Shown here one piece after another: positions 34,343-63,149 of a DNA stretch of 64,000 nucleotides; position 1 is the stretch's first letter; each line of letters begins with the position of its first letter. The position numbers and the translations under genes were made by a program. The DNA is from Phoronis australis (taxonomy: Eukaryota; Animalia; Phoronida). The notes under the pieces are model-generated. The model saw only the letters and a list, made by a program, of their open reading frames with translations, was not told where the DNA came from and made no database searches. Location of the stretch: assembly GCA_002633005.1 (NCBI GenBank), contig NMRA01000275.1:333827-397826 (forward strand), in the 5' to 3' direction.

Positions 34343-34419
34343 TTAGAGTAGCAACATATTTGGATGACCAATACCCAAAAGCTACAACTTTCAATACACT
34401 CTCCGTCTTTTCCTTGAAT

Positions 34420-34570
34420 GCTTCAAAAACTGTTCACATGTCTTGCTGATCTACGTCTGCCATTGATCTTCCGGGATGGTTTTCTTAAAGTGTACGCAAT
34501 CTCTTCACATTCTGTGCATTCTGTCCTTGGCTTCTTCTGATCAGGTAAGCGGCAGACGCAATGCGCTAGT
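34420..34570 (-). pseudogene. Decayed PHD-finger coding fragment, probably transposon-derived
   Basis: HCVCRLPDQKKPRTECTECEE/..CVH.KKTIPEDQWQ has PHD-like Cys spacing with frameshifts. Confidence 0.45.
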
Positions 34571-34798
34571 ATTGTGTTCAACGACAGTGTGACTCAATGG
34601 CGCATGTTGGTTTCAGCTTACCTGTTTTCACACATTAAGTACATGCTCAATCTCAATAGCTTAGGCCTGCTCTGCTTGTTCTTGCATGTGCAAGCTCTGC
34701 CTTTTCCAGCTCTTGTTTATGGGTGCGCTCTGCCTGTTCCAGTTCCCGTTTATGGGCACGCTCTTCACGCTCCAAGGCCTGCTGCAAGAGCTCCTCTG

Positions 34799-37700
34799 TG
34801 TAGTATATTACTAATAATTACTAAGAAAAGAGTATATTTCTACTTAACTAAAAACACGTGATCCCCGGAAGCCCCGCTACCAGAGACTTCTCGTGGTGAT
34901 CTCACAAACTAGTGAGCAGGGTATACCACACTCCTCCCTTCTAGATGAGACTAACAAATTGCTTAAATGTCCTTAAAATAAAGTTCCATCACCATTAACA
35001 CTAAAGTTCCATGGAGAACTACAAATACACTAAACTAATGTTCAGCTAAGTCACAAATCACAAATCCAATCTGTCCGGTGCCTTAGTAACACGAGTGGAC
35101 CTGCGCAATGACACCTGTTCAGGTGACACAGGTGCAGAGTATGAAAATCCCGAGTCCGAATGCGTGTTTGAATCACTGACTGGTTCAGCTGGTGAATCGC
35201 TAGCCACAACTGATGCCTGGTCCGCAGATATCTGCTCTGAATTAAGTTCAACGCATTCAGGCATAGAAGAATCGTCCGCAATAAGGTGATCAGCATGTAC
35301 GAAACCATAATTGTTTCCATACACTTGCGCTACATATGTCAATGATCCAGTAACCTTGGTGACAACACCTGGAATCCATTTCTCCTTCCTACCGCGTGTT
35401 TGCCGAACGCGCACATGTTGATAATGATTGTACTGTCGCAGTTTAGGTGTTTGACCATCATGAGTGGATTTCTGGCAACTTTGCTTCCTTTCCACAGATT
35501 CCTGTAAGTTCGGTTTCAGCAGGGTGAGCTTAGTGTGTGGAGCACGTTTCAGAAATAGTTCGGCTGGAGTTTTGTCAGTGACAGAATGTGGCGTGTTGCG
35601 ATATGAGAACAACAAGTTCGATAAGCGATGCGACAATGGCAAGCGTGTATTAGATTTGTCCAACATGTCGTTGAAAATCTGCACATATCGTTCCGCCTGT
35701 CCATTACTAGCAGGATGATAAATGGGACTGAACGTGTGCTTGACACCATTCAAGAGCGTAGAAATGTCTCAAATTCTGCGGATCGAAACTGTGGGCCATT
35801 ATCTGACACAAGCTCATAGGGCAAGCCATAAGACGCAAACAGCTGACGTAATTTCACAATCGTGTGAGTTGAAGCCGTTCCCAACATGGGAAACACCTCT
35901 AACAACTTGGAGTGGCTATCCACAACAATAAGATAATCCTTACCATCCTTTTCAGCATAATCGATGAGTACTCGCTGCCAGGGCCTGGTTGTCCATGGCC
36001 ACGGAATCAATGGCGAAGGTTTTTGCATGTTACAAAATCGAGCACAATAACCACATGAACGCACTAAATCCTCAATGTCCTTATCCAGGCCAGGCTACCA
36101 AAAGTAACCCCTGGCGAACGATTTCATCCGCACCATACCGGTATGCAAATCATGGAAATCCAACATAAGTTTAGCTTGAAACTTTTTTTGGTTGGTATAA
36201 TAACTCGATGGCCCCACAAAAAGCAACCATCTTCAAGTGACACTTCATCTCTGCGCACAAAATACGGTTGCAGTTCAATACTATCGACATGATCAGGCCA
36301 GCCATGCGACACAAAATCATATACCCTAGAAAGAATCTGGTCCTTAAGGGTAGAATCATGGATCTCAGATGCCGTTACCGGAATAGAGTCCTCAGTAACA
36401 AAAGTGAATCGAGTAAGTCTCCACTTTAGACGCAGTTTCGGGCTGATCCACGGGAAGACGACTCAATGCATCAGCATTTGCATTCAGAGGTGATCGTTTG
36501 TGCACTATCTCAAAATGGTAACCGGATAACACCAGTGCCCAGCGTTGTAAACGAGCAGCTCCGATCGTTGGAATTCCAGCCTTAGGCCCAAAAATGCGAA
36601 TAAGCGACTCGTGGTCAGTAACAAGAGTGAACATACGACCAAATAAGTACATGTGAAAACGCTTCACACCAAAAATCGTAGCTTTTAAGTCCCTCTTTCT
36701 CCACTTGTGCATAGTTCTTCTCTGCAGAACTAAGTGTTCGCGAAGCGAATGCAGTCGGTTTATCCGAACCATCAGGCATCTTGTGGCTTAAAACCGCTCC
36801 CACGCCATAGGAACAGCTTAGAACAAACGGTCTTCTGGGATCGTAGTGCACTAACTCATGATCACTTAACAGCTGGCGCTTACATTCAACAAACGACTTC
36901 TCGCAGGCATCACTTCAATGCCATTCGACATCCCCATGCAGCAGTGCATGCAAAGGGTGTAACAGAGTAGACAAATTACGAATGAACTTGCCATAATAGT
37001 TCATCATTGCGAGAAACGATTTTAGTTCATCCACATTTTTAGGTCGAGGAACCTGTGAGATAGCCTCCACTTTGTCGGCTGAGGGTCGCACGCCATCCAC
37101 CGACAAGGAGTGTTCGAGAAACTGGATCTCCGACATAGCAAATTTACACTTTGATCTGTACAGCTTTACGTTATATTTGCTGAGACGTGCAAACACCAGT
37201 TCGAGAGTGCGAAGGTGTTGCTCTAGGGAATGGCCTATCACCAAAATGTCGTCGATGAAACATATAACGTTATCAATACCAGACAAAATTTTATCCATTG
37301 TAGCCTGGAAAATGGATGGTGCCGTATTTACTGCAAATGTTAGATGGCGTGGTCGCAACAAATACTTGTGAGTGTTCAAGGTGAGTAAGTCGGAAGAATG
37401 GTCATCTAATCGCAACTGATTAAATGCACCCACCAAATCAAGCGAAGAGAACAAACATGGCGTAGAATCGTCATGTGCCAACTTGGCAAACAAGTCTTGA
37501 GTATTAGGTAACGGATATTTGTCATCCTCCAACTGAGTGTTCAATAATTTGTAATCGCCACAGACGCGAATAATGGGACCGGAGGACTTCACTTTCCTGA
37601 CGTTCACAGTGGGCGACGCCCACTTACTATCTTCCACACGCTCACAACACCACTTTGTTCCATGCAACTGAGCTTGGCCTCCACCGACTCCTGAATTGAA

Positions 37701-38155
37701 TATGGAACGGGACGAGCTTTTTGAAATGTGGCTTTTGCATTAGGTTTAAGCCTGATAGACGCAGTGAAGTCTCGGATTCCCTCACCATTATCAATAAACA
37801 GGTTTTTGTACTTTGCGATAAGATCAATATTTTGCGGTTCACAAGATAACTTGAAGAGGGAATTCCAGTTAACTCTCAATTCTCGTTTCCAATTCCTACC
37901 AAAAAGGGAAGGACGGTTTCCTTTAACCACAACGAGAGGGAATTTTCTCGAGGGCTGCTCTTTAAATGTGACTGGCACCTCAATAACACCAAGCAAGGGC
38001 ACGTTTACTTGATCATACCCGAAAAGAGTAACATTTGGAGGCTCCAGATGAAACTGCGAAAAACTTGCCTTGTAAAGGTCTCCACTGATGGTGGTACGTG
38101 CAGCGCCAGAGTCTACTTCCATAGAAATGTCATGGCCAGCAACATTTACAGTTTA
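34799..38155 (-). mobile_element. Ty3/Gypsy (Mag/K02A2.6-like) element A: PR-RT-RH-INT and 3' LTR, 5'-truncated, frameshifted
   Basis: PR MEVDSGA (38122), RT FIDDILV, RH ADALSRLP, INT VSDNGPQF/YHPASNGQAER. PPT AGAAGGGAGGAG at 34931-34942. LTR 34799-34930 has TG..CA ends. It abuts a gag-like coiled-coil fragment (34660-34798, EREERAHKRELE). Confidence 0.92.
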
Positions 38156-38179
38156 GAACTAATAGTCCGCACATGAAGT

Positions 38180-39350
38180 ATACTAAGCTGCAACATAGTC
38201 CTTTAAGTAGGACGGTGGTCGTTGGTGACGAACAGGTATGTTGGGAACATGTGTTGTAGAATCACAATACATCAACGCGGGTTGGTGCCGAAGACAGAGG
38301 ATTGCCCGATACAGTGGATGGAGGCTCATAGGACTTGTGGAGGTGCACTCTATTGCGTGACGTAGCATCCGTTAGGGGTTTGCACTTCATAAGATTAGTC
38401 ACCAAGTCACTTTGTCACAAATCCTTTCTTCCACTCGTTGATGCCAAGTTGACTTGGTTGAATTCACACTGAGTCACCTTCCAGAAACTAATTAGGTAGG
38501 TCCTTGGCGTGTTGATTGCAACGTTGAGCTAATTGTAAACGGGCCATTTCATCCATTTTGTAACTGTCGCTGTAATACGAGTGTGATGCCTCACCACGTG
38601 GAGCTTAGACAGTCTGGCTGTGACAGGCACCAGAGATCGTGTGCGACGACCAAGTAAGCGTTGAGCTGGGCTACTACCCACATCTAATATTACGTGACTC
38701 CAGAAATAGGAATTCGTCTGAGATCTCTTACACTTGCGAAGTAAAGTCTTGGCTGCCTTGACCGCTGACTCGATCTTTCCGTTTAACTGTGAGTGTTTTG
38801 GGGAATTCATGTTGGGTACAATCCCACTTGTGTATGAAAGGTCGGAATTCCATGCTTTTTTCCTGGATCTGACATGATCACAGAAAGAATTCCATAACTA
38901 GCAAAATGTGGTTTTATCTTCTTAATGATGGCAGACACAGAAAATGAAGGAAGACGATCCACTTCCCAGAAGTTAAAAGTAGTAATCAACAAGAATGTGA
39001 TAGTCCTCACCATCAAGGGAAAATATATCCATGCACACCTTTTCCCAGTGACGAGAAAGGGTATCGAGTGAGTGCAGGAATCCCTTTGGCTGTGCCCTCT
39101 CGTAAGTTCTGTATGCATCACACTGTTGAATGAGCTGTTTTATTTCGACAGTCATCCCAGGCCAGTATAAGCATTCTCGTGCTCTATGTAAAGTACTTTC
39201 AACATCGAAGTGTGGCTCATGAAGGAGATTCTTCATTTCAGCCCGCATGCAGAAGGGACATTAACTCTCTCACCCCGGAAAATCAGTCCATCACTCAGAG
39301 AGTACCCATAGGTGGCAGCACCTTACAGACCGTACAACACCACTCTGTTA
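38180..39350 (-). mobile_element. Ty3/Gypsy element B, integrase fragment
   Basis: RARECLYWPGM...WEKVCMDIF...VDYY, SQLNGKIESAVK, C-terminal RPPSYLKDYV. Confidence 0.85.
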
Positions 39351-39494
39351 GATTTAAAATCTTCCAAGTGTTCCTTCAATATTAAAGAATTATCGCATTT
39401 AGCAAATCTTGATGCAAGATTTCAGCATGCAAGTGACATCAAAACCGTGGAAATATATGTTGAGATCTGTCATTGACGATTGGGTGTTTTTCAT

Positions 39495-42400
39495 TGTTAA
39501 CATTGATAATCCCAGATTAGATTCAAGTCAGTTTTTCAAAGACAAACAACTGCCATTTTTGAGGAAGTCACTTGAAATCTATTTTTCAGACAATAGAGAG
39601 CGTACATCAAACAACACGCCATCTAGCGGTCGCAATACATAATCTATTACACCCTTCCCCTCAAGCTTGGAAAACTTAACTAAAGGAACAACACACAGTT
39701 TTACAAGTTCAACCTGTCCGGGGGCTTAACATTTCTGAGCGAACGTCTAGGAGCCGGTACTGGCAGAGCTTCCGGAACAGGCACAGATGCTGAGGGTGAT
39801 TCCACGACATCCCTGTTAGATTCGGGAACAATGGGTGAACTCAACATATCATCAGGGCTTGTCGCTGAATCAGGCTCATTAACATTAGGCACAGGTTCAA
39901 TGTTACAATATCATTACCAGAAGACAAATCATCAGTTACTTTAATCTACACTTCTATCATGCAAACTGGGAGATGTACAATCTAGCTGCATCTGGTCAAC
40001 ATGACGTCTAAATATTCGTCATTGTCAGATTTCACCAAATACATGCGAGACCCTAAACTTTCCATAATGATACCTGGCAACTTATTAGGGCCAACACCAA
40101 AGTTTTGAAACAGAACCTTATCACCAATCTCAAATACACGTAATTTACCAGATTTGTGATTTTCACATTGAACAGCTTTAGTTTTGACTCGGCTAGTAAA
40201 ATCAGGTTTCACTCTGCTTAAAGCAGTCGTTAATCTACGATTCATAAGCAACTCTGCGGGTGTAACTCCCGTCACAGAATGTGGTCTTGTCCTGTTGCTC
40301 AGTAAAACCCGTGACAAACGTGTTTCGAGCAACCCTTCAGTGACACGTTTCAAACCGTTCTTGATAATCTGCACTGCCCTTTCTGCAGCGCCGTTCGATG
40401 CAGGCTAGTGACATGCTTACAAGAAAACCTTGGAATGTCTTACTAATAAATGCACTACCATTATCTGAAACAATGGTATCGGGCAAACCATTGTTTGCAA
40501 AAATACGACGTAATTTCTCAATGGTTAACTCAGCAGTAATGCTGCTCATGGTACATGACTCAATCCATTTAGAGTAGGCATCAATGACTATGAGAAAATA
40601 TGTACCCAAAAATGGTCCAGCAAAATCAATATGAAGCCTTTCCCAAGGTGCGGTAGGGAACTGCCACATATACAATGGTGCCTCAGCAGGTTTCTTACTC
40701 AACATTTGACAAGTTTTATATTTCTTAACAACATCACTCAATGCTGAATCAAAACCAGGCAACCAAACATAGTTTCTACTCAAAGATTTCATAGCACAAA
40801 TACCAGGATGTGCGTCATGTAACTCATCTAAAATCCTAACACAACCTTGCGGAGGAATAGTCACACGTGATCCCCACAAAACTAAGTTGTCTTGTACACT
40901 TAGTTCAAGCTTCCTGCTTACATATGGTGTCAAATCATCAAGTAACTCAGTAGATAACACAGGGTCACGACTTGTCCAAAGTCTCAATTGCGATGCAGAT
41001 ACAGGAGATTCACTCTTTTGCAATGTTTGCATCAACAAAACCAGATCACCAGGGGTAGGAGTGTTTACCTCCTGAAACGGCAATGGCAATCTACTGAGAG
41101 CATCTGCAACACAATTGGTTGATCCCTTACGATTACGAATACAATAATCATAACCTGACGACGTCAAGGCCCAACGCTGCATTCTGGCTGACGCCATAGG
41201 AGGTATAGATTTTGTGTCATGTAAAAGGGTTAGAAGGGGTTTGTGATCTATTTCTAGTGTGAATTTACAACCCCAAACATACTGGTGCATTTTCTTAACA
41301 GCAAAAACACAAGCTAGACCCTCCTTGTCAACCATCCCATAGTTTCGTTAGGCCTTGTCAAGAGATCTAGATGCATAGGCAATAGGCGATTCAGTTCCAT
41401 CAGGGTTTATGTGAGACAAAGTGCAACTTAAACCATACGAAGACGCATCGCACGACAGTAGTAATGGTTTATCAGGGTCATAATGAACTTACAATGGAGA
41501 TGAAAACAACAGTTCCTTCGCACCATCTGGCTCATCACCAGTGAATACTTAGGGTTAGCCGCAATATAATCACGGATTGACTCTGTGGGCTTTTGTATCT
41601 TTTTCATGAATCGGAAATGTTCCATAATCACCACCGGTTTTGGGGAGTAATGTTCTTTCAGTGCAGCGACGCATTGTTGAAACGTTTTGTCCTTAGGGGC
41701 TGCCAGAGACACCAATGAGTTCAACAGATCATAAGCCGTTTCACTGATAACGGCTAAAAAACAAGTAACATGTTTTCCGGAGGGCAAATCATTTGCCTCG
41801 AAATACGCCTCCAATTGTTCAATGTATGAATCAAAGTTAGTTGGTTCTGTTAATGGAGATATTGATCCTATTAAAGACGACATTTTTCGACTTCGTCGCC
41901 TACTGTTAACGTTGATGAACCCAGATTCAATTCGAGTCAGTTCTTCAAAGACAAACAACTGTAAGGTGTTCTGTTATACCAATAAAGTCATATATCCAGT
42001 ATATTAATACGTTTATTATGGAGAGCACAAATACACTACTTATCAGATCGAGCTGTAGCCATTAGCGGAAGTAGGTCAAGTTCAATGTTACTTCCAAATA
42101 ACAACATTACTTAACTAACACATGACATCTCCCGTCTTCAAAAGAAAAACAAAAGAATATTCAACTACACTAAACTAATTGAAAAGTTTACGAAATAACA
42201 AAGTCCTTGAAGCATCTGGGTAGCTTGATTTGTCGTTTAGGTGTGCCACCTGTAGACTCGGGCTGCAGTGGTTGGTTGGTTTGTTGAATAAGGCGTCCGC
42301 CGGGGGTTTCCAAGTTTCAATCGGGTGGCAACGTTGGTGGTGGGAGTTTTGGTTCACTAGATGAAGTCTCCGGCTGTGGGGACGGCTTTGATGCAGGACA

Positions 42401-42667
42401 ATCTTTCGAGTCTGGATCCAGACGCTGGGGTATCAGGCTTGGCTTTATATGCACGCGGTTTATTGAGTACTTAATACCGGCAGTGTCTTTGACAGTATAC
42501 GACCGTTTATCAAGTTCAATGTGGCTTCCAAATAACAACATTACTTAACTAACACATGACAACAACATCCGTTTTTGAGGAAGTCACTTGAAATCTATTT
42601 TTCAGACAATAGAGAGCGTACATCAAACAACTCGCCATCTAGTGGTCGCAATACATAATCTATTACA
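39495..42667 (-). mobile_element. Ty3/Gypsy element C with both LTRs and TTCAT TSD; PR and RT deleted
   Basis: LTRs 39495-39651 and 41904-41959 plus 42567-42667 (~8% diverged by eye). PBS TAGGCGACGAAG at 41891-41902, PPT at 39652-39662. gag (FDSYIEQLEAYFEAND) is joined directly to RH and INT (HIDFAGPF, VSDNGSAF). Confidence 0.92.
41960..42561 (-). mobile_element. LTR element D, ~600-bp deletion derivative inserted into the 5' LTR of element C, ACAAC TSD
   Basis: ACAAC|TGTAAGG...CATGACA|ACAAC. LTR segment 42077-42127 is repeated at 42511-42561. PPT at 42128-42139. Integrase tail RSYTVK..G..Y..NRVHIKP. Confidence 0.88.
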
Positions 42668-43000
42668 TTCATTAAATGTGAATTGTGAGAGTCTTAGACG
42701 TCCTCCTACCCAGAGCAGTCCATCTGGGTCAATGTAGAAATCCAATTTCTGCAGAGGACAGTTTCTTGGTTGTTTCTTGCCTTCCGGGAGTGCAGATATC
42801 TTATTTCCGTAACAGGCCTGTTGAGCCGCTTTGATGACGATTGTCTTGGCCTGCGAGAGACTGTCGACATCTGGGATACATAAGTGCCATCCTTTTGCAT
42901 TACAAGGGTTGCCCTTGTCGCGTCTGTAGCATGAGCTAACCTGTATCAGTAAGGCCATCGCCTTCGTTAAAGACTTCCAACTGGTTAAGCGTGTGAATCT

Positions 43001-44165
43001 TGTTGAAATATGTCACTTTTGGTTGCAAAAATGAAACCACAACACATCATGAGAATGACCTAGTCTATTGTGAAAAAGAGACTAACTACAACGAAACAAC
43101 TAATAATGCGGTCGATGTAACGTAGAAGGAACTTAAACTTTCAACATTCCTCAGTTGTTAGTGTTTAAGTTCAAACATAACCAATAAAATAGTTTCTCTA
43201 AGTTCTCAATGCTGGTATGATAAAGTATCCGGACAGTACCGTTGGCCTTTTATACTCCTTCTCAAGTCCAAATATGTACTCATCAAACACAACATCACGA
43301 GTAAGAATGGCTCGATCACGAGTTATATCATACACACGATATGCCTTACTATCAGGTGCATAACCCTGAAAGATGGTCTTTCTAGATTTTGAATCAAACT
43401 TAGAATGTTCGTCCTTAGGGACATGTGTATATGCTCTGCAGCCAAAAACACATAGAGTATCAACACTCAGTTTTTCACCCATCAAGGCCTCAAATGGAGT
43501 TTGACCATTTGCTGCCTTCGTAGGACTTCAGTTTCGCAAATAGGTAGCAGTGGAGATTGCCTCTGCCCAAAATTTCTGGGGCAAAAGCAATTCAGCAAGC
43601 ATTGAGCGTGCAGTTTCGACAAGGGTGCGATTCATTCTTTCGGCAACTTCGTTTTGCTCTGGTGTTTTCGGAACAGTAATTTGGTGTCTGATTCCCTCTC
43701 GATTGTCTGAGGTACTGTTCAAACTGCTTTGAAATGTACTCTCCTCCATTGTCAGATCTAAGAGTTTTGAGTTTCTTGTTGAGGATGAGGCCATTGTGTT
43801 CGGATTTGCTGTGGATTTATTTGCCAGTATAAAGAAGTGAATACAACACCTCTCGTGGGTTAATAGGAAGTGTCCTTCTTAATTATCTCCAAAACAAAAG
43901 AGAACATACAATCAACTACACTAGAGAACAATAGATGGCACCACATGACAGACACAGCTCATCATCTGACCAGTAAGATTCTCAGCCATAGCCTTCCATT
44001 CTAAAAAGGTATCGAATACCTGATCCTTACGCTTGGTGATGTACACCCAAGTATACCAGGAATAATCATCGACAAATGTCAGAAAGTATTCACAACCACT
44101 GAGGGAAGCTGTGCACATTTTACCACAAACATCAGTGTGCACAAGTCCCAGAGGGACATTACTAC
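43001..44165 (-). mobile_element. Ty1/Copia element fragment (integrase plus 3' LTR)
   Basis: LVHTDVCG, YFLTFVDDYS, LRSDNGGEY, PKTPEQNEVAERMNRTLVE, FGCRAYTHVP. LTR TGTTGAAA...TTTCAACA at 43001-43146. Confidence 0.92.
43777..43964 (-). mobile_element. Solo LTR inserted in the Copia integrase
   Basis: TGTTGAG...CTCATCA termini interrupt LTGQ|KLKTLRSDNGG. AATAAA is on the minus strand. TSD not clean. Confidence 0.6.
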
Positions 44166-45429
44166 GATGGGCCTTGTCAGCAAAGTCTGTACGAAATGTG
44201 AGTGTATCATTATTGACATCCCAGCTCACACCAAGACTGCACTGTACTGGCATGGAGTTGCTGCTTAAGTCGAGATTCTTGGGGTCTTTGGCCAAATCTT
44301 TTGTAGGAAAGGCCTTCAACACGTCTTCACTGTTTGAGGCGGTCTTATGGAGGTGAAGTTTCCCTTCCGTGATTAGAGCTTACTGTGTCCTTTTAAGCAA
44401 GCTGACTGTTGCCTGGGGTGTCGGAAGTGACACTAATCCGTCGTCAACGTAGAAGTTGTGATCGACGAACTTCTTTATGTCAGATTCATACAAAGATTCG
44501 GCTCTCTGTGCCGTGAGCCTCAGCCCATAAGTCGCAATAGCAGGAGATGGAGTGTTACCGAAAACGTGGGCACTCATGCATACTCTATGAGGTCTTTAAA
44601 TAGATCACCGTCCCTGTACCAGAAGAAATGTAGGAGGTTTCTGTGTTGTTCATTTACTTAAAAATTGTAAAACATTTGCTGTATGTCAGCTGTCATTGCT
44701 GCGGCTTGCTGTCAGAATCTCAGTAGTACACCAAGTAGGCTGTTGGTGAAGTCGGGGCTTTTGAGGAGGACATCGTTTAAAGACATGCCGTTATGCCATG
44801 CAGACGAATCAAAAACACCTCGTATTTGGTCTGGCTTCTTTGGATGGTAAGCGCCAAACAATGGCAGGTACCAACATTCTTCATTCTCTAACAGAGGTGG
44901 TGCAACTTCGGCATGACCTGCTCCAATGACAGTTTTCATAGACGTCACAAAGTGTTCTCTTTTCTTCAGGTCTTTGCGAAGGCTGTGATCAAGGACCTTG
45001 GCAAGTTTCCAGGCCTGTGATCTATTTTTCGGTAGAGTGGGTCACTGAGTCTTGAAGGGAGGGGAGCTATCCAGTGACCATCTCCATTCTTCCTGAAGTT
45101 TGTGCTTACAGTGCTCAGGAATTCGCGATCCTCAACTGATTTTCCCGGCTTCTCGTCCTGTGTCGTTGTCTCGAAAACATTCCTTCCAAGTAAACCATCC
45201 GATATCATGGGAGCTTCCACAGCCTGTTTTTTGATGGTGAACGCATTTGGGCATGGTTAAGACAACGACGGACGCCGGTTGCTTAAGATGAATGTCTTGT
45301 TGGCCACAATATTTTCTCAAGCAGCTCGGCACTCTTTGTCCTTGCCAGGAACTCCAACAGGGCGTCTGTTACTGAGTCGTATCTATTGACAAGTACATTT
45401 ATAGCATTTTGGATTTCTTGAAGCTTAGT

Positions 45430-46448
45430 CATGCGAATGTGTCCGGTTTTCGAGCATTTGTGGCACTTCGCGTCCTTGAACGGACAATTATCTTTTGTGT
45501 GATTGTCTCTAAAGCAACGCAAGCGAGGCGATTTCTCTGAATTGTTCATATGCAGGTTTCCAGCCTTTGTGACGAATAGAATGCGCAGTTTCTCCATTTG
45601 GGGTAGAAGCTTGCAGGGTTTTGCTGTCAATATTGTCTTGTTCCTGTGCCAGTGCAAGTTTACAAGCCGTTTCCCAATTGAGTGAATCTCCCTTTACGAG
45701 CAACTTGGCCTGCATAGTTTGTTCATTCAACCCTGACACAAATGTGTCCCTGAGACTGTTCTCTAGTTCATCACCATAGGAATAATTTTTAGATAATTTT
45801 TGTAGTGCCAAATATAGTCACTAATGGTCTCACCTTTCATATGTTTACGATTTCAAAATTTGATGCGATAAGCGACAACACTCTTAGTTGTTTCGTAGTA
45901 TTTCGTCAGAATGGCCATAATATGTCCACAAAACTTTTGTCCGTTGGATGTCTTGGAAGGCATTGATTGTAAACAATTTCAAAAGCTGCGGGACCGATCA
46001 GCATGAGAAAGACATTCACCTTCTTGTCATGGGCAATGTCATTGGCCAACATATAAATCTCAGTTCTCTGTAGGTACATGGACCATTTCCCCGTTAAAGG
46101 GTCAAACTCTCCAATGTCAAAGTGTCCAATGTAATTTCTGGTGGCGTTGCCAGCCGCCATATTGGATTTATATGAGGTCAAATTTTATGCTTCTTTATCG
46201 AATATTTTGCTAACTGCAAGTCCTTTCACTGGAATTCACCATCCTGGTTAATCCTGAATGTATTTTTAACATATCTTCGCAAAAACAGTCCTTGTCTCCA
46301 AATTGTGACGTTTTTAACGACGAGCCAGAGAACAAAGAAACACACCTCGTTCAGCAAACAACTAACTTTATTCTAAACCAGTAGGTTTCACCACTGTACG
46401 GTGTATACATATGAGAATGGCAATATCCCACATTGACTTAGTAGTAGC
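45430..46448 (-). mobile_element. Ty3/Gypsy element E: 5' LTR, PBS and gag with zinc knuckle
   Basis: PBS-like TGGAGACAAGG at 46290-46300. WSMYLQRTEIYMLANDI, LRDTFVSGL, CHKCSKTGH. Confidence 0.8.
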
Positions 46449-46449
46449 A

Positions 46450-47292
46450 TTGTGTTTGTGGACGCAGTCCACCATATTTTCTCTCAAGAGTGTCTTTCGC
46501 TGCTTCATAAGCCAACGCTGAATGGCCTAGGCTTTCGATGATTTTCAGTGGATCCCCAGACAGGTACTTTTTGAGCTGCAACAGCTTGAAATCAGCGGTC
46601 TGTGGCGCTCTGTCTACACAAGCCATGAACGCTGCCTTCCAGCCACCACATGTTTTGTTGTCGCCATTAAAAGTCAGGATGGACACCCTTGTCAGTTGGT
46701 TCCACATATCTCTACCTATTTCATCGTCAGCGAGACCGTCATACAGTTGGGTACCTTCAGTAGCTGTAAAAGGGCCTTGGTATAGACGGGATGAAACCTC
46801 CGGCAAGGGGGAGATGTGTTGTGTTTTGCTTTATTTTCAACTTTAACAGCGTTTTGTGGGGACTGGGAATCATAATGTTCTGCTTTGTCAACAACCGATC
46901 TAGTTTCACTAGCGCATGTCTTGAACTGGCTCTCCGCCCTGTCAAATTCTTCTTCAATTTTTTCAGTCTCTTTGCTTATTTTGTCTACGTTTGCATGATC
47001 ACCGCTTTTGGCATACAAGTCTGACAGGCGGGCCAGGACGTCTGTTACGCTCTCATATGTGTCTAGGAGATGATTTTTCAGTGTTTTGAGTTCACTAAAG
47101 TTTGTCTCGGTGTCATACAAAGAGTCTAACAACTGATAGCGGCATCTGGTAAATAGTGATTAACATTTGGCTTTCGCCATTTTTAGCTGGGTGATCTCTT
47201 CGTCGGAATCTGCCGGAACATAGGTCTGGTGCTTACGACCCATCTTAATTCGTCCACAGTTCTTTTAACGTTGTAACCTTGCTCTGCTACCA
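46450..47292 (-). mobile_element. BEL/Pao gag region (DUF1759-like) with PBS
   Basis: PBS TGGTAGCAGAGC at 47281-47292. LTRVSILTFNGD...WKAAFMACVD...KLLQLKKYLSG...LERKYGG. Confidence 0.85.
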
Positions 47293-47294
47293 AT

Positions 47295-48860
47295 TCTCTG
47301 GCCTCACGATGATCAAAGACAACAATAATAAGCTATTTCAATGATATATTTTCCGACAAAAGTTCGATCAAACTATGACAATATGGCGGGAACAACTACG
47401 CCCCCAGCCGCTAGAGGCAGCAGTAAAATACTTCTATACAACAAAGAACACTGGGAATAACGGCGATAGCGTGACTAGACTTAATAAAGTTGAATAAGCG
47501 AACTAAAATGAAGTAAATAAAGATATAATGAAGTAATACTTGTACTAATTTAACTAAAGTCTGTATAACAAGATCCATCACAATGTAAACAACAGATCCA
47601 TCACAACAGTTACTTATAGTGCCAAATAGAATTTTTAGCATTATACCAAATAATTATCTTCTCCAGGTATTTTTTCCTAATACCAGTTATCACAACACAC
47701 AAAATAACACCATTAATCAGCTTCCAGCAATAAACACAATTTGGTGACTGGTATTTCATACTGCGAATTTTGTGTTTGCACTGTAGCAATACGCACTAAA
47801 CCTTTGTTGTCAGGTTTGACATCAATAATTTTGCCCATGGGCCACACATTTCTTGGTGAAATATCAAACACAAGCACTATATCACCAATTTTCAAATTTC
47901 TCCTTTGCTTAAGCTATTTCTGCTTTTCTTGAAGACACAGGACATATTCTTTCTTCCACTTTGACCAAAATATGTTGCTCAAATACTGAACTTGTCTCCA
48001 TCGGCGTTTCACTTACATGTCGTTTTTCACAAACACGCCTTGTGCAAACTGTTCACCAGACTTAAATGTAGACATCAACATATGATTAGGAGTCAAGGGT
48101 ACTGGATCTCTGGGATCAGATGACAAAACTGTAAGTGGTCTACTGTTAAGAATGGACTCCACTTCGCAAAACAAGGTTTGAAGGCCTTCGGCGTCTAGTT
48201 TCACTGACTGCTCTTTGGTTAAACCATACAAAATTTTACGGACTGACCTTATCTGCCGTTCCCACAGTCCACCATGGTGACTTGCAGTAGGGGTGTTGAA
48301 TGCCCCCTGTATGCTTTCTTGTTGCAACTCAGCGTGACAAGTCTGTCTTCATTCCATTCTCTGATGGCTGTCGCAACTCTCTGTCTGCACCCACTAAGTT
48401 TGTCCCATTGTCTGACTTCATCCATTTGACAGGACCTCTCCTGAAAATGAATCTTCTAATAGCATTAAAACATGAGTCAAGATCTAATAAGTTTGCTAGC
48501 TCCAAATGACAGGCACGAGATTCAAAACAAGTAAATAGAACCTCGTAACGCTTGTAAACAGATCGACCTCGCTTGATTTCAAGAGGACCAAAGTAGTTGA
48601 CTCCACAGGTGGTGAATGGTTTGTGATCACCAGTGACTCTTTGAACAGGTAAGTCCACCATTTGTTGCTCTCCCAGTCTTCCGAGGTATCTTCTACAATG
48701 AACACATCTTGACAAAGTCTTGCTTGGTTTCAGAATCCAAAATCTTTCACGAAGCTTGGTAAGCACTATATTTTTTCCAGCATGGCCTAATCTTCTGTGC
48801 ATGTCTTGAACTAGAAGGGGCACAACAGGATTGACACCAGGAATAACAATGGGATGCAAT
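47295..48860 (-). mobile_element. BEL/Pao integrase, C-terminal domain and 3' LTR
   Basis: HPIVIP, GVNYFGPL, SDNGTNLVGA, SHHGGLWERQIRSVR, KIGDIVLV..PRNVWPMG..GLVR...PVTKLCLLLE. PPT-like GGGGGCG at ~47400. Confidence 0.88.
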
Positions 48861-49069
48861 TGGCTGTTACAGTTTGTTCCCAGAATTTTCTAGAATCTCT
48901 GGAGTACTTTGACCCCAGAACCCAAAGTTGTAAACACCATCTAAAAATAGATTTTGACGTTTAAGTACATGTCAACAAGTCTAACCTCATGATTTAAAAA
49001 TGCGCAAATTTTGGGCAACTTAAAATGGATCTATTCTTACTAATTACTTAATCAATATTTATTCCCTAC

Positions 49070-52000
49070 ACTCGGCCACCAAACTTTCGATTGTGCATGT
49101 GCCTTCATTTTAACAATTCCTGGGTGCCCTTCATGAGCTAACTATGCGACCTGGTTTCTCAAACTTTGCACCCTCTCAAAACTAGTTTGGAATAATTCCG
49201 TTGCTGTTGATAACAAAAAAGTCCTTTGTGACAGGAGAATGTCGTTATTCCCTCGATTTCTCGTCCATTTCGATTGGATGGAACCCACTCTTCAAATCCA
49301 ATTTGCTAAATACTATGCTGCCATTTATACAGTGAAGGACCTTGGATATCGTGTTCTGATAACAGCTGTGTTTGCCATATGCATGCCGATGCATACACGG
49401 ATCTCATTACCAGACTGTTTCGGAATAACAACAAGCGGTGATACTGTCGATACTGTCGGTTCGATTATGTCTGCTGCCAACATTTCCGCGAGTTTTGCAT
49501 CCAATTTGCGTCTCATCACAAACGAAATGCGGTGTTGGGCTTGTGCAATGTGTTTGACTGATTCATCTATGTAAATTTTTGCTTGATAGTCACATAATTT
49601 TCCAATACCTCTGCAAGCATAACTATTGAACTTTGATATCCTCCTTGGTCAGTTTTGAGTCACCATTAATCGCATTCACATTAACGCCGATTTTTATATT
49701 CATTGCAGTTTCGCGACTCATGAGGGAACGTCCCTCTCCTTTTGTCACCATGAACTACGCTTCTACCTCATGATCACCAATTTTCACTGTTGCCGCAAAG
49801 CGTCCCAGTAAATTCAGCGGGGTAGATGCACCATATGGGCACAGTCGTTTGGTGCTTCTCGATGTAACGCACTTTATCCTCTGATTTTTCAAGTAAGACC
49901 CTGTTTTACTTCCGCCAATATTTGCGATACATCCAGAGTCCATTAACATAGGGACTAACACACCCGCTACATTAAAGTTAATGGTAGCTTCCATGTCAAT
50001 TTGATCAGTTCCGACAGAAAATGTATAAGTCAGACTCGTCAGATTCCTCAGCACAGTAATCCACGTTCCTAGGCTTGGAACGTTGACCAGTTTTTCGTTT
50101 CACGCCCCCTGAACGAGCCTGAGATTTTCCTTTGTCACGTTTCACATTCTCAGTACGACATACATTAAATAAGTGGCCCTTCAAATTGCATTTGTCACAC
50201 AATGCGTCACGAGCAGGGCATAACGCGTCCTTGGCATAATGCCCGAATTGACCACATTTGAAACATGCTCCCTTTGCTTTTTGGGGTTTATTTTTCACCC
50301 GATTCACTTCAGACTGACCAGATGCTTTTCCATCGCTTTGGTTTGCTCGTTTACGACCTCAAGGGCTCTGGCAATGTCTAATAGTTTACTCAATGTTAAT
50401 GTGTGACCCTGTTGTGACAGTTTTCGCTTCAACTGACCAGATTTGCAACAATCTATTACCTGATCTCGAATTCGTTCATCCCTTTCCGCTTCTGAACTAA
50501 ATTCGCAATTTAAAGCTTGTCGCTTTAACCTTGCAGCATACTGATCAATGGTCTCTGAACCTTGTTTCATCGTACGAAAAACGTAGCTCTTTGTACGGAG
50601 AGTCAGTTTAGGCAAAAAGTAGGCATCTAGTCTGTGCAGGGTGTTATATCGTGCATTTATCTGCAGATTCAACCGGATTTAACCACACCATTTAAGGTAC
50701 AATAAAATATATTCAATTCCATAACCCTGCCGACTACAAGTAGTGACCTCTCACGTCAAGAATGTCTCCAAGATATATATAACTAACATCTGGTGTTACA
50801 TAAACACTACAACTCCCCTCATTCTAAATAAACATATACCAAGAAAATAAAACTGAACACGCTAAATACAGACACAGGTCTGATGTACAGACAAAGAATT
50901 CAAAATACAGCGAATATAAGCCTTCAATTAAAAGTCACTAAAGTCTGTCAACAGTATGTCAATTCAGTTCTGTCACTATGTAATGTCATCGTTTATGTGC
51001 ATACATATAGTCTTTCAGATGTTCCGGTGGTCTCCTTTCATGACCAGATCGAAGTTCTAAACCCCTATCACACAATTCAGACGATCCGTCAATGACTTCT
51101 ACATCATCATCTTCTGGCACTTCAGGTTTAACAATTTTTTACAAAAGTGCTATTACAATCATAAGATACCCCATCCTTATTCTGCATTGTGCATTTATTT
51201 CCGTGTTTTGCTCTGGTTCGTAAGTAGTGGACAGTTTGTCCTTGTGTTTTTGTCTGATCAAGACTTCATCACCAATCTCCAAATCCAATGGCTGCACATT
51301 GCGTTTCGTGTCCGTACACCACTTTTTTCAGCTTTTGTTCCGCGTCACTTAATCACGAACATTTTCGAATTCGTCACCGTCTCTATGATTCATAGTACCC
51401 TGTAGTTGAGATAATTTCGTTCGCGATTTTCTCCCAAACATTAACTCTCCCAGTGAAACACCAGTGGTCACGTGCGGTTTGGACCGATATTGCAGAAGGA
51501 ACGTCTGGATTTCCCTTTTCCAGTCTTTCGACTGGGCATGTGCGATTTTAATCCATTTCAGTAGGGATCGAATTTGTCTCTTGACTTCACCGTTTGCAGC
51601 AGGGTAAAGAGGCGTTACCCCCTGTGTGCGATATCATTCGATTCCATAAACAATCGAAATTCCTCAGACGCAAATTGAGGGCAATTATCTGATGTCACAC
51701 ATGTGGTAGCCCGAAGTGAGTGAACATATGGTTTAACATGTTGATAACATTATTCGTCGATATTTCCTTATCAATCTCATAATAACCAGTAAAATAATCT
51801 ACGCATACAAATACCTACTGCCCCCGTGAATAGGTCCCATGAGGTCGATGGCCACCACCAGCCACAGTCCCGTTGGCAAAGACGTAGGCATTAATGCTTC
51901 AGGCGGTGATGGTCTCGAAACCAATTGACAGCCTAAACATGATTTAACATGATTATCAGCGTCCTTGTCCATGCCTGGCCACCACACTTTCGTTCGCAGT

Positions 52001-54825
52001 TGCTGCTTCGTGCCAATTATACCTAAATTTCCCAGATGAGCCAACTCGATGCACTTCGACCGCAATACTTTAGGCATTACCAGGCGCACTCCACGTATCA
52101 CCAAATATCCTAAAATAGTCTACTCATCCCTAATCGATGCATAAGTCGGTAATTTAGCTTTTTCCCACTTGTTTAACCAAATACACTCATGTAACTTGCT
52201 CAACTCCTCATCTGTTTTCATGCACTCTTCAACTTCACGAATCAATACCGTGCTGGGTGCGTATGTTTCGCCACAAAACGAATAAGCGATTCTGTTTCCT
52301 GTTCAATCACGGTCTCTTGTCCGTCACCTTTCCGTATTTGTACAAGACAAGACAGAACATCAGCAATGTTCTTTTCACCAGGTTCATATTTCACGGTTAT
52401 GAGCACAATACCGATATCACGTGTCCAAAGAAGACAATTTTGTCCGTTGTGAAATCACATTTCTGCTTGTTTAACATGAGTTTCTTTTCCCGCATTTGCT
52501 GCAACACCTTTTCTAATCCCGCATCATGTTCCTGTTTGTTTTTGCCGAACACAATGATGTCATCCGAAATGTTAATAACTCCTTCGCAGTCACTAAAAAC
52601 CTGCAAAATCACATGTTGGTATTGGTGCAGCGCACTACTCACTTCAAAATTCAGTCGTTTGTATCTGAAAGGTCCATTGTGCGTAACAAAGGTTGTGATG
52701 TCGCATGATTCCTCGTCCAATTCAATTTGGTGGTAACCATATTTCAAGTCCAGCTTGCTAAAAACAGCACTCCCGTTTATTTTGTGCATAATCTCGTCAA
52801 CCGTGGGTATCAGTTGTCGTGCTCTCTTGATCGCGGTATTTGTACGCCTCATCTACACATAACCGAATGTCCTCATTTGACTTCGGCACAATAATTGGGC
52901 TCACCCACTGCGTTGGCTTATCAATAGGGTCAATTATATCCTGTTCCTGCAGCTCATTAATTTCATCATTCACTTTGTCTCTCGGTCTATACGGAACCCT
53001 GTACATAGACTGAGCGACCGGCGTCACATCTCCATCAACATGAAGGTGTAATTGGAAACCATCCAGTTTGTCAGTGCCATCAAAACAATCAGGATATTTA
53101 TCAACCACACTTGTCGAGATTGAATTCGCAATCTTGAACAGACTCAACTGCGTGGCGGTTTCACGACTCAATAATGATTCACCGACACAATCCAGCACCG
53201 CAAAATCTGCTTTAACAGCTTTGTCGCCTACTGAGATCTCTGCATTAAATTTTCCGATCACGCGTAACGGTTCCTGAGCACCGTTCAGCCACAAATTTTC
53301 AGAAAATTTGGTCGAATGACAACAAATCTTCTCACTTTTCAACCGCTCCCATGTTTCTTTGCTTACACTGTTCTTTGACGTTCCAGAATCGATTATCATC
53401 TCCAGATTCACATCACCAACTACAGCCTTCACATGCTTCATTCCGTGGCTGTCATTGTAAAACGCATAACCATCAGAGTCCGACGCACACTGATTTGATT
53501 TACTTGTTTCTGCGATTTATGCCTTCCATTATCACTCCTGCATTTTGCTTCAAAGTGATCAAATTTCCCACACTTCCTGCATTTTTTCCCTTAGCAGGAC
53601 GGGGTCTGTGCGGATATGACCATAATATCCAAAACTATAGCATTCCAATCCCTTGTTAGATTTATTTGACTGAGGTCGCTGTTCTCGTTTTGGTCTGAAC
53701 CTGATTTTATTGGTCCCACTGACTCTGCTGAAATGACCAGTATCCTAGGGATTTTCTATCGCTTTCACTTGCTGATCGACAGCTTCTAATGCTCGTGAGA
53801 TGTCCAACACTTTGGACAACGTTAGCCCCGCCCCTTCTTGGAGCAATTTACGTCTCAGCCTGGACGATCTGCATTGATCAATTACTTGATCACAAATTTG
53901 CTCTTCTGTTGCCTTGGCTGTGCCAAAGTCACAATCTGCCGCCAGAGTTTTCAATTTTGCAACAAATTGGTAAACCGTTTCCTCCTCCGTTTGTTTTAAA
54001 CTACGAAATTTATGGCGCTCATAGGGTACGTTCAGCTTTGAGGTAAAATACGCATTAAGCTTCCTTACCACCATTTTGTATATGTTGTCAGTCTCGCCGT
54101 CTAGTCACGCCACATCGGCCAAAGTGTCGCAACGATTGTTTTTGGGTATTGTTCGTTATTCCTTTTCCCACGGCAAAGTATTCAAACGATTTCATCCACC
54201 GTTTCCACCGCGCACCAACATTGGCTGCATCTGTGTGACAATCGAAATTTTGCAGTCCATTTAAAGCCACGGCAACAGCCATCATGCGAATATATCATAG
54301 AAATTCACACACGAAAAAAAGCTTCTAAAATGTTCTCCCCGTCGCCACTAATGTTATTTTGCGCATTTATCTGCAGAATCAACCGGATTTAACCACACCA
54401 TTTAGGGTACAATAAAATATATTCTATTCCATAACCATCAGGGTTTCCTTCGAAGATGTCCTGTAGATCCATGCCCACCATATGCAACAACAGAGAGCAT
54501 TTTTGGTTTACATTTGTAATACCTTTCCCTTTAACAAAGAAGGTGAACACTTTCCTCCATCGTTTCCAATGCGAGCCCACGGCGGATGCCTCCCTGGACT
54601 TATCGAATTGAGGCAATGGATTTAATTCAAAGCATCCATTGTCCAACAAATTCTCACCACACAATAAACCTAAACCACTAAACATAAAAGTTTCGTATCC
54701 TCGTTGCCAGGTTGTACTGTTTTATCTACTTATTAACCAGATTAAAATGCCAGATTGAAATAACAGTGAACTATTATAGTTTATTGGATTCCACTCCCTA
54801 GTGCCACCCAGTGAGTAGCTACAAC
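49070..54825 (-). mobile_element. Ty3/Gypsy element F (host): 5' part 54437-54825, 3' part 49070-50641, heavily deleted
   Basis: PBS TGGCAACGAGG at 54699-54709. gag WKRWRKVF...LLLHMVG continues as LDAYFLPK...CFKCGQFGH. PR LMDSGC, RT fragment, INT HEGHPGI..KVWWP. Confidence 0.82.
50642..54436 (-). mobile_element. Ty3/Gypsy element G nested in the gag of element F; RNase H largely deleted
   Basis: LTR segments 50642-50726 and 54352-54436 (~7% diverged by eye). PBS TGGCGACGGGG at 54337-54347, PPT at 50812-50820. gag, PR IIDSGT, RT FSKLDLKYGYHQ/NISDDIIV, INT. Confidence 0.9.
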
Positions 54826-54999
54826 ACTACTCATCTTAAGTCTTATTTACTAGTAGAAAAGTCCGACAGCACAACTGAACAGCATGAAATATCCTTTCTC
54901 CTTTAAAGAAAACTAAGTCCTACGTCCTTGATCTAGTATCCACTAAATAGTATCATAAAACTATTACTATAAAGCAAAATAATGTGCTTCGTGTGGTAT

Positions 55000-56085
55000 A
55001 GCTATCCATGTAGGCAGGGCATTTTACTTGTCTTCATGTGGTTTGGCCAGTAGTTGTGGGTTGGGTTTCACATCCTTTGTCGCAGTTGGCTTCAACAATG
55101 TTGTTGGTGTAGTGCCTACATTTCGGTGTGGTCTATGTAGCAAAGGAGCATGTTCCGAGGTGCATTTTAAATCTACTCGATTTCACCTGTAGCTGCCCTC
55201 TTGTGTGTCCGCAATGTAGGAGCAATCACTTAAAGCTTTTGTAACTATGGCTTTACTCTTCTCCTTCTTTCCTTTAAGCACAGGTCGCATTCTGACAACG
55301 TCACCCTCTTCAAGTGGCTGTGGGTCTTTGGCTGCACAATCATGGTACAAGTTTTGGCGTGTTTTCTGTTTTTCGCTCAGCTTCAATGTCGACAGTGCAT
55401 GGCTTGAGGAGACTGGTTGTCATGAGCAACAGTGTACGGGCTCTCCGATTGTTGAGCCGCTGCATATAGAACTGCTTGTTAGCCCTTGCGTTGGAGTGTT
55501 ACATACCTCCAGCAGTTTGCAATGCCAATAACCATCCTGTAAGTCGAAATGACTAAAAATTTTGGCCTTCGCCAAGTCAGGGACCATGTTGTTAAGGACT
55601 GGCATTGTGTAGTGCTCGCTTTTTATTGCCTTGTTGAGGGGTCTAGGATCAATACAGATCCGAAGGTCACCAGACTTCTTTATTGTAACTGCCATTTGGC
55701 TTACCCAGTTGCCAGGCTGATCGACCTTTTCTGTGACCCCCCTCTCTCTCATCTTTGCCAACTTGGCCTCCACTTTGGCTGTGATGGATACAGGTACTTT
55801 TCGGGGTGGACACACAACTGGTGAGGCAAAATCCTTAACCTCGATATGGACACTGTCTGGCAATGAGCCCAGGTCGCCGTCTAAAGGGTTAGGGTGCTGA
55901 GTGGTGATGTCTGAGGTCACCGTGTTAACCATTTTGAACGATTCATAGTTAATTGTAACTAGACCCATCTTCTCCACACAAAGCCAACTCAGTAGGGGAG
56001 TGAGGTGATTGTCAACGACAGTGAAAAGGACCTCATGCTTCTTGCCCGTCTGGGTTTTTCAACTTTAGCACGCATGTCTGTAGAT
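55000..56085 (-). mobile_element. Ty3/Gypsy fragment H (RT N-terminus fused by deletion to integrase tail)
   Basis: LRICIDPRPLNKAI..FSHFDLQDGYWH is joined to NTPTQGL..YHDCAAKD..LEEGDVVRMRP. Confidence 0.85.
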
Positions 56086-56089
56086 ACGG

Positions 56090-57370
56090 GATGATTTGGT
56101 GCAGTTGGTGGAGATTGAGCTCTGTCAGGTGCGGCTGGACAAGGCTCAATGATCTTGGTTGTAGGGTTCTCTACTCTAGATATGTTGTTCTATGCAAGAA
56201 ACGACCTGTTCGACTACATTGGATAGAATATGATCTTGGTTCTGGGCCAATTCCAGTTACGATGCCAATGATCCAATCCTTCTTGGCTACATCTTGATAG
56301 TAGATGAGTTGGTTTGTTGACAATTCTGGAAGTTCTCGCCCAACAATGGTAGCTGCTGGAGGTCTTGGGCTGTTTGGGTTGGTGTACTTGGGGAGGCTTC
56401 CGCCAAGTTTGCGTCCAAAAAGTAGTTCAGCAGGTGATGGAGAGTTTGCACCTTGGGGAGTTGTTCGATACTGAAGAAGGCTATTGTCGATGTCGTTATA
56501 ACAGCGCTTTCACCACGCCCACCATCCTTTCAATGAACCCATGGGAACGTGGATGGTGTGGGGATGATGTAACGTGGGTGATCCCATATCTGGCCATGAG
56601 TTCTTTAAATAGTTTGCCTATAAACTGGGGGCCATTGTCAGTGATGATGGAATTTGGAATTCCAAACATTTCAAGGGTTTCCATCATCAGTTTGCTGATG
56701 GTATGGCTTAACGTGTTGGATGCAAGCTTGTGGAGAACAGGATAGCGTGTTGAATAGTCAGCGATGAGCAAGTATTCGCAGCCATCCAGGTGGAACTAGT
56801 CAGCATTGAGGGTGTGCTATGGCACATTTGGTACGTCTTGGCTTATTGAGTCGAAGGGCTCCTTCGACTGCGATCGCTGATATTGTTGGCAAGTTTCACA
56901 ACTACCCACCAAGATGGTTATATCGTCGGAAATCCCACACCAGAAAACAGTATCTTTGGCAAGCTGTTGACACCGTGTGATGCCTTGATGTCCTTCATGT
57001 ATCTTTGCCAGATAAAGTTGTTGAAGGGTGGCTGGAATTATGACGCGTTTCCCTTTCAGGATGAGGCCGTCTTCCAGGCTCAGTTTGTCTCTGACACTCC
57101 AGTATGGCCTGAGACTTGCTGGGAGTTCTGTAATTGTACTTAGGAAACCAGTGCTTATGAAGTCGCTCAACAATGAAAGTTGGACATCTTTTTGTGTCTC
57201 GGAACGTATTTCAATCAGTCTCTCGGATGAGAACTGAACAAAACAGACTTTTAGATCAAGGTGGATTTCACGATCTGTGGATGTCTTTGGTAGACGTGAC
57301 AGGCTGTCTGCTAATACCATTTCTTTACCTGGTCGATATTTAATGGTATAGTCATACCTCTGTAGCCGTT
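56090..57370 (-). mobile_element. Ty3/Gypsy fragment I (RH end plus integrase)
   Basis: LQRYDYTIKYRPGKEMVLADSLSRLP, HEGHQGIT, ITDNGPQF, SSPHHPRSHGFIERMV. Confidence 0.9.
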
Positions 57371-57371
57371 G

Positions 57372-59242: not shown

Positions 59243-59253
59243 TGCACCATACT

Positions 59254-63130: not shown

Positions 63131-63149
63131 TAAGTGAACATGCTCTCGA

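What the first reader, a model, noticed from the sequence alone, without database searches (positions are those of the whole stretch)
34660..57370. Candidate flamenco-like unistrand piRNA cluster: ~23 kb of Gypsy, BEL/Pao and Copia fragments, all in one orientation
Seen: at least 14 separable LTR insertions from three superfamilies and apparently all different families, packed with almost no spacer. Every ORF, PBS and PPT is on the minus strand. For 14 independent insertions the chance of uniform orientation is 2 x 0.5^14 (~1e-4). The neighbouring 30 kb of genic DNA has no recognisable LTR elements, and its DNA-type repeats occur in both orientations. Established: Drosophila flamenco and similar unistrand clusters are LTR-dense, fragmented, nested and antisense-biased relative to one long precursor. 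Inference: a plus-strand transcript here would be a multi-family antisense library, i.e. an anti-retrotransposon memory locus in a probable non-arthropod invertebrate, where such loci are poorly described.
Basis: partly seen in the sequence, partly recalled or inferred. Interest (0 to 1): 0.9.

Follow-up and report, generated by a model that had tools for sequence, protein, structure and literature searches.

The report
One-way retrotransposon pile behind PARS2 gene
A 23-kb pile of broken retrotransposons from about a dozen unrelated families, all pointing backwards, sits just behind an ordinary animal gene whose RNA runs on towards it, so it likely serves as a read-through source of transposon-silencing piRNAs, although no small-RNA data were available to show this.

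Summary
34.4-57.4 kb holds at least 11 (likely 14) separate, decayed Gypsy, BEL/Pao and Copia-type pieces of different families; all 2,565 protein matches are on the minus strand, none in the flanks. Three nested insertions keep 5-bp target-site duplications, so they are independent co-oriented events (p about 1e-3 to 1e-4 before allowing for the scan's search). Neighbours of related Gypsy elements elsewhere split about evenly. Stranded RNA-seq shows plus-strand RNA running 3 kb past the PARS2 stop over an antisense hAT remnant, with no AATAAA before the pile, but a single-copy part inside the pile had no reads and most pile reads come from other copies. The right half could not be tested with RNA; no small RNA was available. 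It is not a flamenco member (too small, not Gypsy-only, no env). It fits better a piRNA cluster downstream of a gene (piC-DoG, described in mammals); one-strand clusters are already known in slug and planarian. The scan noted similar co-oriented piles in two other genomes. Verdict: likely a new member of a known kind; piRNA output unproven.

The parts
12000..30270 (+). Host gene, mitochondrial-type prolyl-tRNA synthetase (PARS2; name inferred from domains and recalled motifs); stop codon 30,268-30,270; start approximate
   Evidence: PF00587 and PF03129 on plus-strand exons; exon reading; reads over its last exons all first-mate-minus
30271..33337 (+). Transcribed 3' extension of PARS2 (long 3' UTR or read-through); no AATAAA, ATTAAA at 30,847 and 33,269
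   Evidence: Plus-strand RNA in single-copy bins 31,337-33,337 in X5-X7; motif count
30903..32400 (-). Decayed hAT transposase remnant, antisense to the PARS2 extension (extent above 31.2 kb by eye)
   Evidence: PF05699 E=3.2e-4
33762..34345 (.). High-copy MITE-like repeat with terminal inverted repeats
   Evidence: Loose read ends at 33,762 and 34,345 and DNA depth 4,500-6,100; TIR read from sequence
34350..34796 (-). Gag-like remnant (E/R-rich coiled coil); assignment by eye only
   Evidence: Sequence; no retroelement Pfam hit
34797..38152 (-). Gypsy piece: protease-RT-RNase H-integrase, PPT, 3' LTR 34,797-34,930
38180..39350 (-). Gypsy integrase piece of another family
   Evidence: PF17921, tblastn
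39495..42667 (-). Gypsy element with both LTRs (95% and 88% alike), internally deleted, inserted into a BEL piece with target-site duplication ATGAA
41960..42561 (-). Near-empty Gypsy element (LTRs 96% alike, PPT) inserted into the 5' LTR of the previous one, target-site duplication GTTGT
42668..43060 (-). BEL/Pao piece upstream of integrase, continued at 39,390-39,494
   Evidence: tblastn; sequence
43200..44171 (-). Copia-type integrase piece, split by a 191-bp high-copy solo-LTR-like insert (43,774-43,964)
   Evidence: PF25597 E=3.6e-26, rve; empty-site contig at depth 91; Copia call rests on recalled motifs
44172..45424 (-). BEL/Pao RT piece; single-copy in the DNA run; both junctions spanned by one contig
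   Evidence: tblastn; contig 44,125-45,469 at depth 39
45425..46432 (-). Gypsy 5' LTR (46,304-46,432), degenerate PBS and gag
46433..47299 (-). BEL/Pao PBS (TGGTAGCAGAG at 47,292) and gag (DUF1759)
47300..48885 (-). BEL/Pao integrase, DUF5641, 3' UTR and LTR
49062..54800 (-). Gypsy element (PBS at 54,714; gag split in two; protease, RT and integrase remnants) that hosts the next element
50642..54438 (-). Gypsy element with 3' LTR (50,642-50,811), truncated 5' LTR (93% alike), inserted into the gag above with target-site duplication CCCTG
54800..56059 (-). Gypsy piece: RT start, deletion, integrase tail, LTR remnant
56060..57365 (-). Gypsy RNase H end and integrase, fused without an LTR to the Harbinger transposase
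57366..57782 (+). 3' third of a PIF/Harbinger transposase; first plus-strand AATAAA beyond it at 58,369; possible end of a plus-strand precursor
   Evidence: PF13359 E=4.7e-21
59254..63400 (-). Spliced, partly broken Myb/SANT gene, the usual Harbinger partner, pointing towards the pile (upper end approximate)
   Evidence: PF13837 E=2.7e-9; frames

Best explanation
This is a pile of independently inserted, then deleted and decayed LTR retrotransposons, all antisense to PARS2, that likely acts as a one-strand piRNA source fed by transcription that would leak past the weak PARS2 poly(A) signal. Shown: independent co-oriented insertions; plus-strand RNA to about 33.3 kb; close relatives of several pieces elsewhere in the genome, one of them expressed in sense. 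Inferred: RNA polymerase II continues through the pile, perhaps to the Harbinger transposase's poly(A) signal near 58.4 kb; the transcript is cut into antisense piRNAs that silence the living copies; antisense insertions were kept because they add immunity, and sense insertions were lost because they add none and their LTR poly(A) signals would cut the precursor short.
For: Orientation 11-14 of 11-14, plus the hAT remnant; three 5-bp target-site duplications; neighbours of related Gypsy elements elsewhere split 4 same, 5 opposite. Strand-calibrated RNA past the PARS2 stop in single-copy DNA: about 25 reads first-mate-minus versus under 1 first-mate-plus in 31,337-33,337 over three runs. No plus-strand AATAAA between the stop and the pile (0 versus 2.4-2.7 expected, P about 0.08); CpG o/e there 0.40, lower than the PARS2 body (0.55), promoter 0.95. 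Pile bins mostly have 2-6 times single-copy DNA depth, so targets exist; sense RNA of one family in all three runs (40,675-41,341). The elements point towards the end of an essential gene, the direction expected to interfere with it, so protection of PARS2 alone does not predict it (inference). Same layout as mammalian piC-DoGs (PMC11615739) and the 3'-UTR route in flies (PMC13226689).
Against: No small RNA examined. Zero RNA reads in 44,010-45,343 (single-copy) and 38,674-39,340 in all three runs, where about 9 reads per run were expected at the level of the PARS2 extension in X5 and X6. Coverage falls in 32,671-33,337, next to an ATTAAA at 33,269, so the extension may be a plain long 3' UTR. 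Most reads on the pile carry letters of other copies and lie on both strands (antisense share 0.74, 0.68, 0.43). Plus-strand AATAAA is not depleted inside the pile (13 versus 12-14). A Myb gene points into the pile from the other side and its transcription was not tested. No genome was held, so whether such piles are common here is unknown; the window was picked from a very large scan.
Confidence: 0.48

Rival explanations
1. One-strand piRNA cluster with its own promoter (between 33.3 and 34.7 kb, or left over from the Harbinger transposase gene it abuts), independent of PARS2.
For: Same orientation statistics; RNA drops before the pile; the pile is fused to a plus-strand transposase 3' end; flam-like clusters are canonical transcription units (PMC10643416).
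Against: No CpG-rich, promoter-like stretch in 30.3-34.7 kb (o/e 0.40); no 5' part of the transposase found among 109 short ORFs there; antisense orientation already starts at the hAT remnant inside the PARS2 extension.
Confidence: 0.17
2. Silent, methylated transposon nest in a tolerated gap between genes; the shared orientation is chance or a local integration bias (for example replication-fork direction or insertion into existing LTRs), with no defence role.
For: No RNA on the single-copy part; CpG decay inside LTR pairs, 6 of 20 CpG positions versus 5 of 84 others, P=0.006, and some invertebrates methylate intergenic elements (PMC11292947); one proven and two probable insertions sit in another element's LTR; look-elsewhere effect.
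Against: Three superfamilies with unrelated integrases would need the same strong bias; neighbours elsewhere split about evenly; families are too unlike for selection against inverted repeats; p 1e-3 to 1e-4.
Confidence: 0.2
3. The pile lies in the intron or tail of a plus-strand transcript (long PARS2 isoform or lncRNA); sense insertions were purged because they truncate it, and no piRNAs are made.
For: Plus-strand RNA upstream; antisense bias of LTR elements inside transcription units is established for mammalian introns (recalled).
Against: No downstream plus-strand exon found; purging does not explain why a dozen families accumulated here and none in 18 kb of PARS2 introns.
Confidence: 0.12
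4. Assembly artefact joining repeat contigs.
For: Short-read-era data, N gaps elsewhere in the window.
Against: Target-site duplications; one read-derived contig at single-copy depth spans two mid-gene junctions; no N in the pile; misjoins would not impose one strand.
Confidence: 0.03

Closest known systems
piC-DoG: piRNA clusters downstream of genes in mouse, human and hamster (PMC11615739; passages read)
   Same: Dense antisense transposon fragments just downstream of a coding gene; RNA beyond the stop on the gene's strand; size within the >10-kb range described.
   Different: Host is a non-mammalian animal; cargo is Gypsy/BEL/Copia rather than LINE-1/ERV; read-through across the pile and piRNAs are not shown.
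Drosophila flamenco and flam-like clusters (PMC10643416; passages read)
   Same: LTR-dense, fragmented, nested, one orientation.
   Different: 23 kb versus 227-1,085 kb; bias there is Gypsy-only with other LTRs depleted and env-bearing targets, here BEL and Copia share it and no env domain was found.
One-strand clusters of slug and planarian (PMC11615739); Gypsy-rich mollusc clusters (PMC6128900; passages)
   Same: Non-arthropod invertebrate; the slug's example makes piRNAs antisense to densely packed fragments on one strand.
   Different: No link to an upstream gene was reported in the passages read.
Antisense Tirant insertions in host 3' UTRs (PMC13226689; abstract and outline)
   Same: Host-gene transcription turns antisense insertions into piRNA sources.
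   Different: Single insertions there; a multi-family pile beyond the detected UTR here.

Membership tests
flamenco-like cluster | LTR enrichment with strong strand bias | tested here: met
   73% coding coverage, all minus
flamenco-like cluster | Hundreds of kb long | tested here: not met
   23 kb, both ends inside the window; published range 227-1,085 kb
flamenco-like cluster | Bias confined to env-bearing Gypsy, other LTRs depleted | tested here: not met
   BEL and Copia-type pieces co-oriented; no env family among 107 ORFs
flamenco-like cluster | Abundant one-strand piRNAs in ovarian somatic cells | not testable with these tools
   No small-RNA run was listed
piC-DoG | Lies downstream of an expressed gene | tested here: met
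   4.1-4.5 kb behind the PARS2 stop; exon reads in three runs
piC-DoG | Transposon content antisense to that gene | tested here: met
piC-DoG | Read-through transcript crossing the cluster | tested here: inconclusive
   Plus RNA to 33.3 kb; none in 44.0-45.3 kb; right half untested
piC-DoG | piRNAs from the cluster and from host exons | not testable with these tools
   No small RNA
Ty3/Gypsy | gag-PR-RT-RH-IN order, LTR/PBS/PPT | tested here: met
   Colinear matches to full-length polyproteins; PPT-TG junctions
BEL/Pao | DUF1759 gag, BEL-type RT and integrase, DUF5641 | tested here: met
Ty1/Copia | Integrase upstream of RT; Copia-type integrase and SH3 tail | tested here: inconclusive
   Only integrase and SH3 survive (PF25597); motifs recalled; domain order cannot be read

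The most novel reading that the evidence does not exclude
An essential housekeeping gene of a non-arthropod invertebrate donates its read-through transcript to a multi-superfamily retrotransposon trap: a piC-DoG outside mammals, which would make gene read-through a bilaterian-wide route for founding piRNA clusters.
Probability: 0.4. Interest if true: 0.7.

Novelty: new member of a known kind. Interest (0 to 1): 0.5.

Why it matters
How piRNA clusters are founded is open. Read-through from ordinary genes has been shown in mammals, and 3'-UTR capture in flies; my search for piC-DoG wording found only mammalian papers (3 listed). This locus is small, has both ends defined, a named candidate promoter and living target families, so one small-RNA library and one long-read library would test the model in another animal lineage. 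If no piRNAs are found, it becomes a clean counter-example to calling clusters from strand bias alone.

Tried and rejected
No genome held, so no genome-wide LTR density or synteny test. No RNA holder was listed by index; the RNA runs came by species label. RNA on 46-64 kb was not obtained. The protein atlas did not complete. Host lineage: a PARS2 exon found nothing; BRX1 exons score almost equally against molluscs, nemerteans and vertebrates (67-77% for most), so only 'slow-evolving bilaterian, probably not an arthropod' is supported. Rfam: 0 matches. Plus-strand PPT-like strings (7) were rejected: those in the pile fall inside minus-strand coding pieces. A 35-nt inverted match at 43,080/45,873 gave no plus-strand domain. 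Poly(A)-signal depletion inside the pile: none. Whole-block duplication rejected: one part is single-copy and other copies of the Copia piece lack its insert. Two papers on nesting gave no usable orientation statistic (PMC6911290, PMC2672092; passages); the Nematostella paper's passages did not address strand bias (PMC5731801). Searches returned nothing relevant. Supplements were not read.
Full report
Setting. The window is animal DNA, about 38% G+C, rising to 43% in the pile. Left: BRX1 on minus (Brix domain) head to head with a class II tRNA synthetase on plus, read as PARS2 (name from recalled motifs), stop at 30,270. BRX1 exons are about equally close to molluscs, nemerteans and vertebrates; the host is a bilaterian, probably not an arthropod, and not placed further. 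No genome was held.

Observation. 24 of 107 minus ORFs carry retroelement domains, 0 of 125 plus ORFs and 0 of 238 flank ORFs. 120 Gypsy and 150 BEL proteins give 2,565 HSPs, all minus, all in 35,061-57,404, covering 73% of the finding; a reversed window gives 0. 78 unrelated loci (715 kb) match only the pile by tblastx. PBS motifs at 54,714 and 47,292 and PPT-TG junctions at 50,825, 42,139, 39,662 and 34,942 are on minus. Not covered: 119 plus ORFs of 30-44 aa, and Copia by tblastn.

Independence. Internal regions share no more than 76% DNA identity over short stretches and 27-56% protein identity. Three elements keep LTR pairs (88-96% alike) and 5-bp target-site duplications: ATGAA, GTTGT, CCCTG. 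Other joints are mid-gene deletions; two are spanned by one contig at single-copy depth. Eleven pieces have distinct integrase or integrase-tail regions (two tails judged by eye); about 14 insertions is the likeliest parse. Chance of one orientation: 1e-3 for 11, 1.2e-4 for 14, not corrected for the size of the scan.

Background. I fetched 78 loci with related Gypsy elements and examined the 31 longer ones: 4 same-strand and 5 opposite-strand neighbour segments (two of the five are probably one element). A position-based count adds one same and one or two opposite, and shows four loci with what look like head-to-tail repeats of one element, left out as non-independent. 22 of the 25 loci of 10 kb or more share one assembly prefix, so this is a small control from another species.

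RNA and DNA reads (26,001-46,000 only; 18-19% of three RNA runs, tissue unknown). Bins with PARS2 exons have first mates only on minus, so plus-strand RNA equals first-mate-minus. Single-copy bins 31,337-33,337 keep that strand at depth about 1 in X5 and X6 and 0.2 in X7, falling in the last bin. This stretch holds an antisense hAT remnant and no AATAAA. In the pile, reads lie on both strands and, at the listed sites, mostly carry the letters of other copies; near 35.4-35.5 kb one or two plus-strand reads of X6 do not, too few to count. 38,674-39,340 and 44,010-45,343 have no reads. DNA depth is about 40-48 in single-copy flanks and 105-250 in most pile bins; the majority contigs differ from the window by 1.5-3% plus small indels, so dispersed relatives exist; one family shows sense RNA in all three runs. 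The right half was not obtained.

Methylation trace. CpG o/e: promoter 0.95, PARS2 body 0.55, stop-to-pile 0.40, pile 0.73. Transitions hit 6 of 20 CpG positions versus 5 of 84 others in LTR pairs (P=0.006) and 5 of 12 listed transitions against other copies (P=0.03; 22 of the 40 rows shown lie in the pile, 402 rows were not shown). The region is methylated in the germ line; this fits gene-body-type methylation but also element silencing, which occurs in some annelids (PMC11292947).

Mechanism. Shown: successive independent insertions, one orientation, heavy deletion, plus-strand RNA up to 1.0-1.5 kb before the pile, living relatives. Inferred: leaky termination at non-canonical signals, a precursor through the pile, processing into antisense piRNAs, selection keeping antisense copies. 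Rapid processing or gonad-limited expression would explain the empty bins, but so would silence. I put a piRNA source at about 0.65 overall, PARS2-driven at 0.48.

Comparison. Not a flamenco member: size, family make-up and env fail. It matches the piC-DoG layout of mammals on position and antisense content; read-through and piRNAs are open. One-strand transposon-antisense clusters are published for slug and planarian, and two unchecked notes of this scan describe similar piles in other genomes, so the kind is known. What would be new is the link to a housekeeping gene's read-through outside mammals (search 73 listed three papers, all mammalian in subject; one search listed only insect loci).

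Noticed in passing
window 57,366-63,400: Decayed PIF/Harbinger pair: transposase 3' end on plus and a spliced Myb/SANT gene on minus, tail to tail; the transposase 5' part is missing and the pile is fused to it without an LTR.
   Followed up: partly
window 41,960-42,561; about 47,300-47,400; about 54,720-54,890: One proven and two probable cases of an element sitting in the 5' LTR of another, giving 'integrase tail-LTR-PBS-gag' joints between families.
   Followed up: partly
window 22,801-23,552: 452-bp tandem duplication (97% over 300 nt) that includes a PARS2 exon, with an N at 23,112; may be an assembly artefact or a duplicated exon.
   Followed up: no
window 9,600-12,300: CpG-rich (o/e 0.95) region between head-to-head BRX1 and PARS2, likely a bidirectional promoter.
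   Followed up: partly
window 43,060-43,200 (-): Short stretch with an RYID motif that recalls a Penelope-like RT; no Pfam support.
   Followed up: partly
window 30,670-31,336 and 33,762-34,345: Very high-copy repeats (summed DNA depth 97,000 and about 5,000) inside or just behind the PARS2 extension.
   Followed up: no
window 6,394-7,689 and 15,341-16,506: Two 80-90% alike copies of a 1.3-kb non-coding repeat in opposite orientations, in introns of BRX1 and PARS2.
   Followed up: no
window 48,885-49,060: About 180 bp inside the pile that match no LTR element; orientation unknown.
   Followed up: no
L027, L050, L003, L047: Gypsy domains repeat head to tail at 4.2-4.5 kb spacing: tandem copies or circular assembly.
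   Followed up: no
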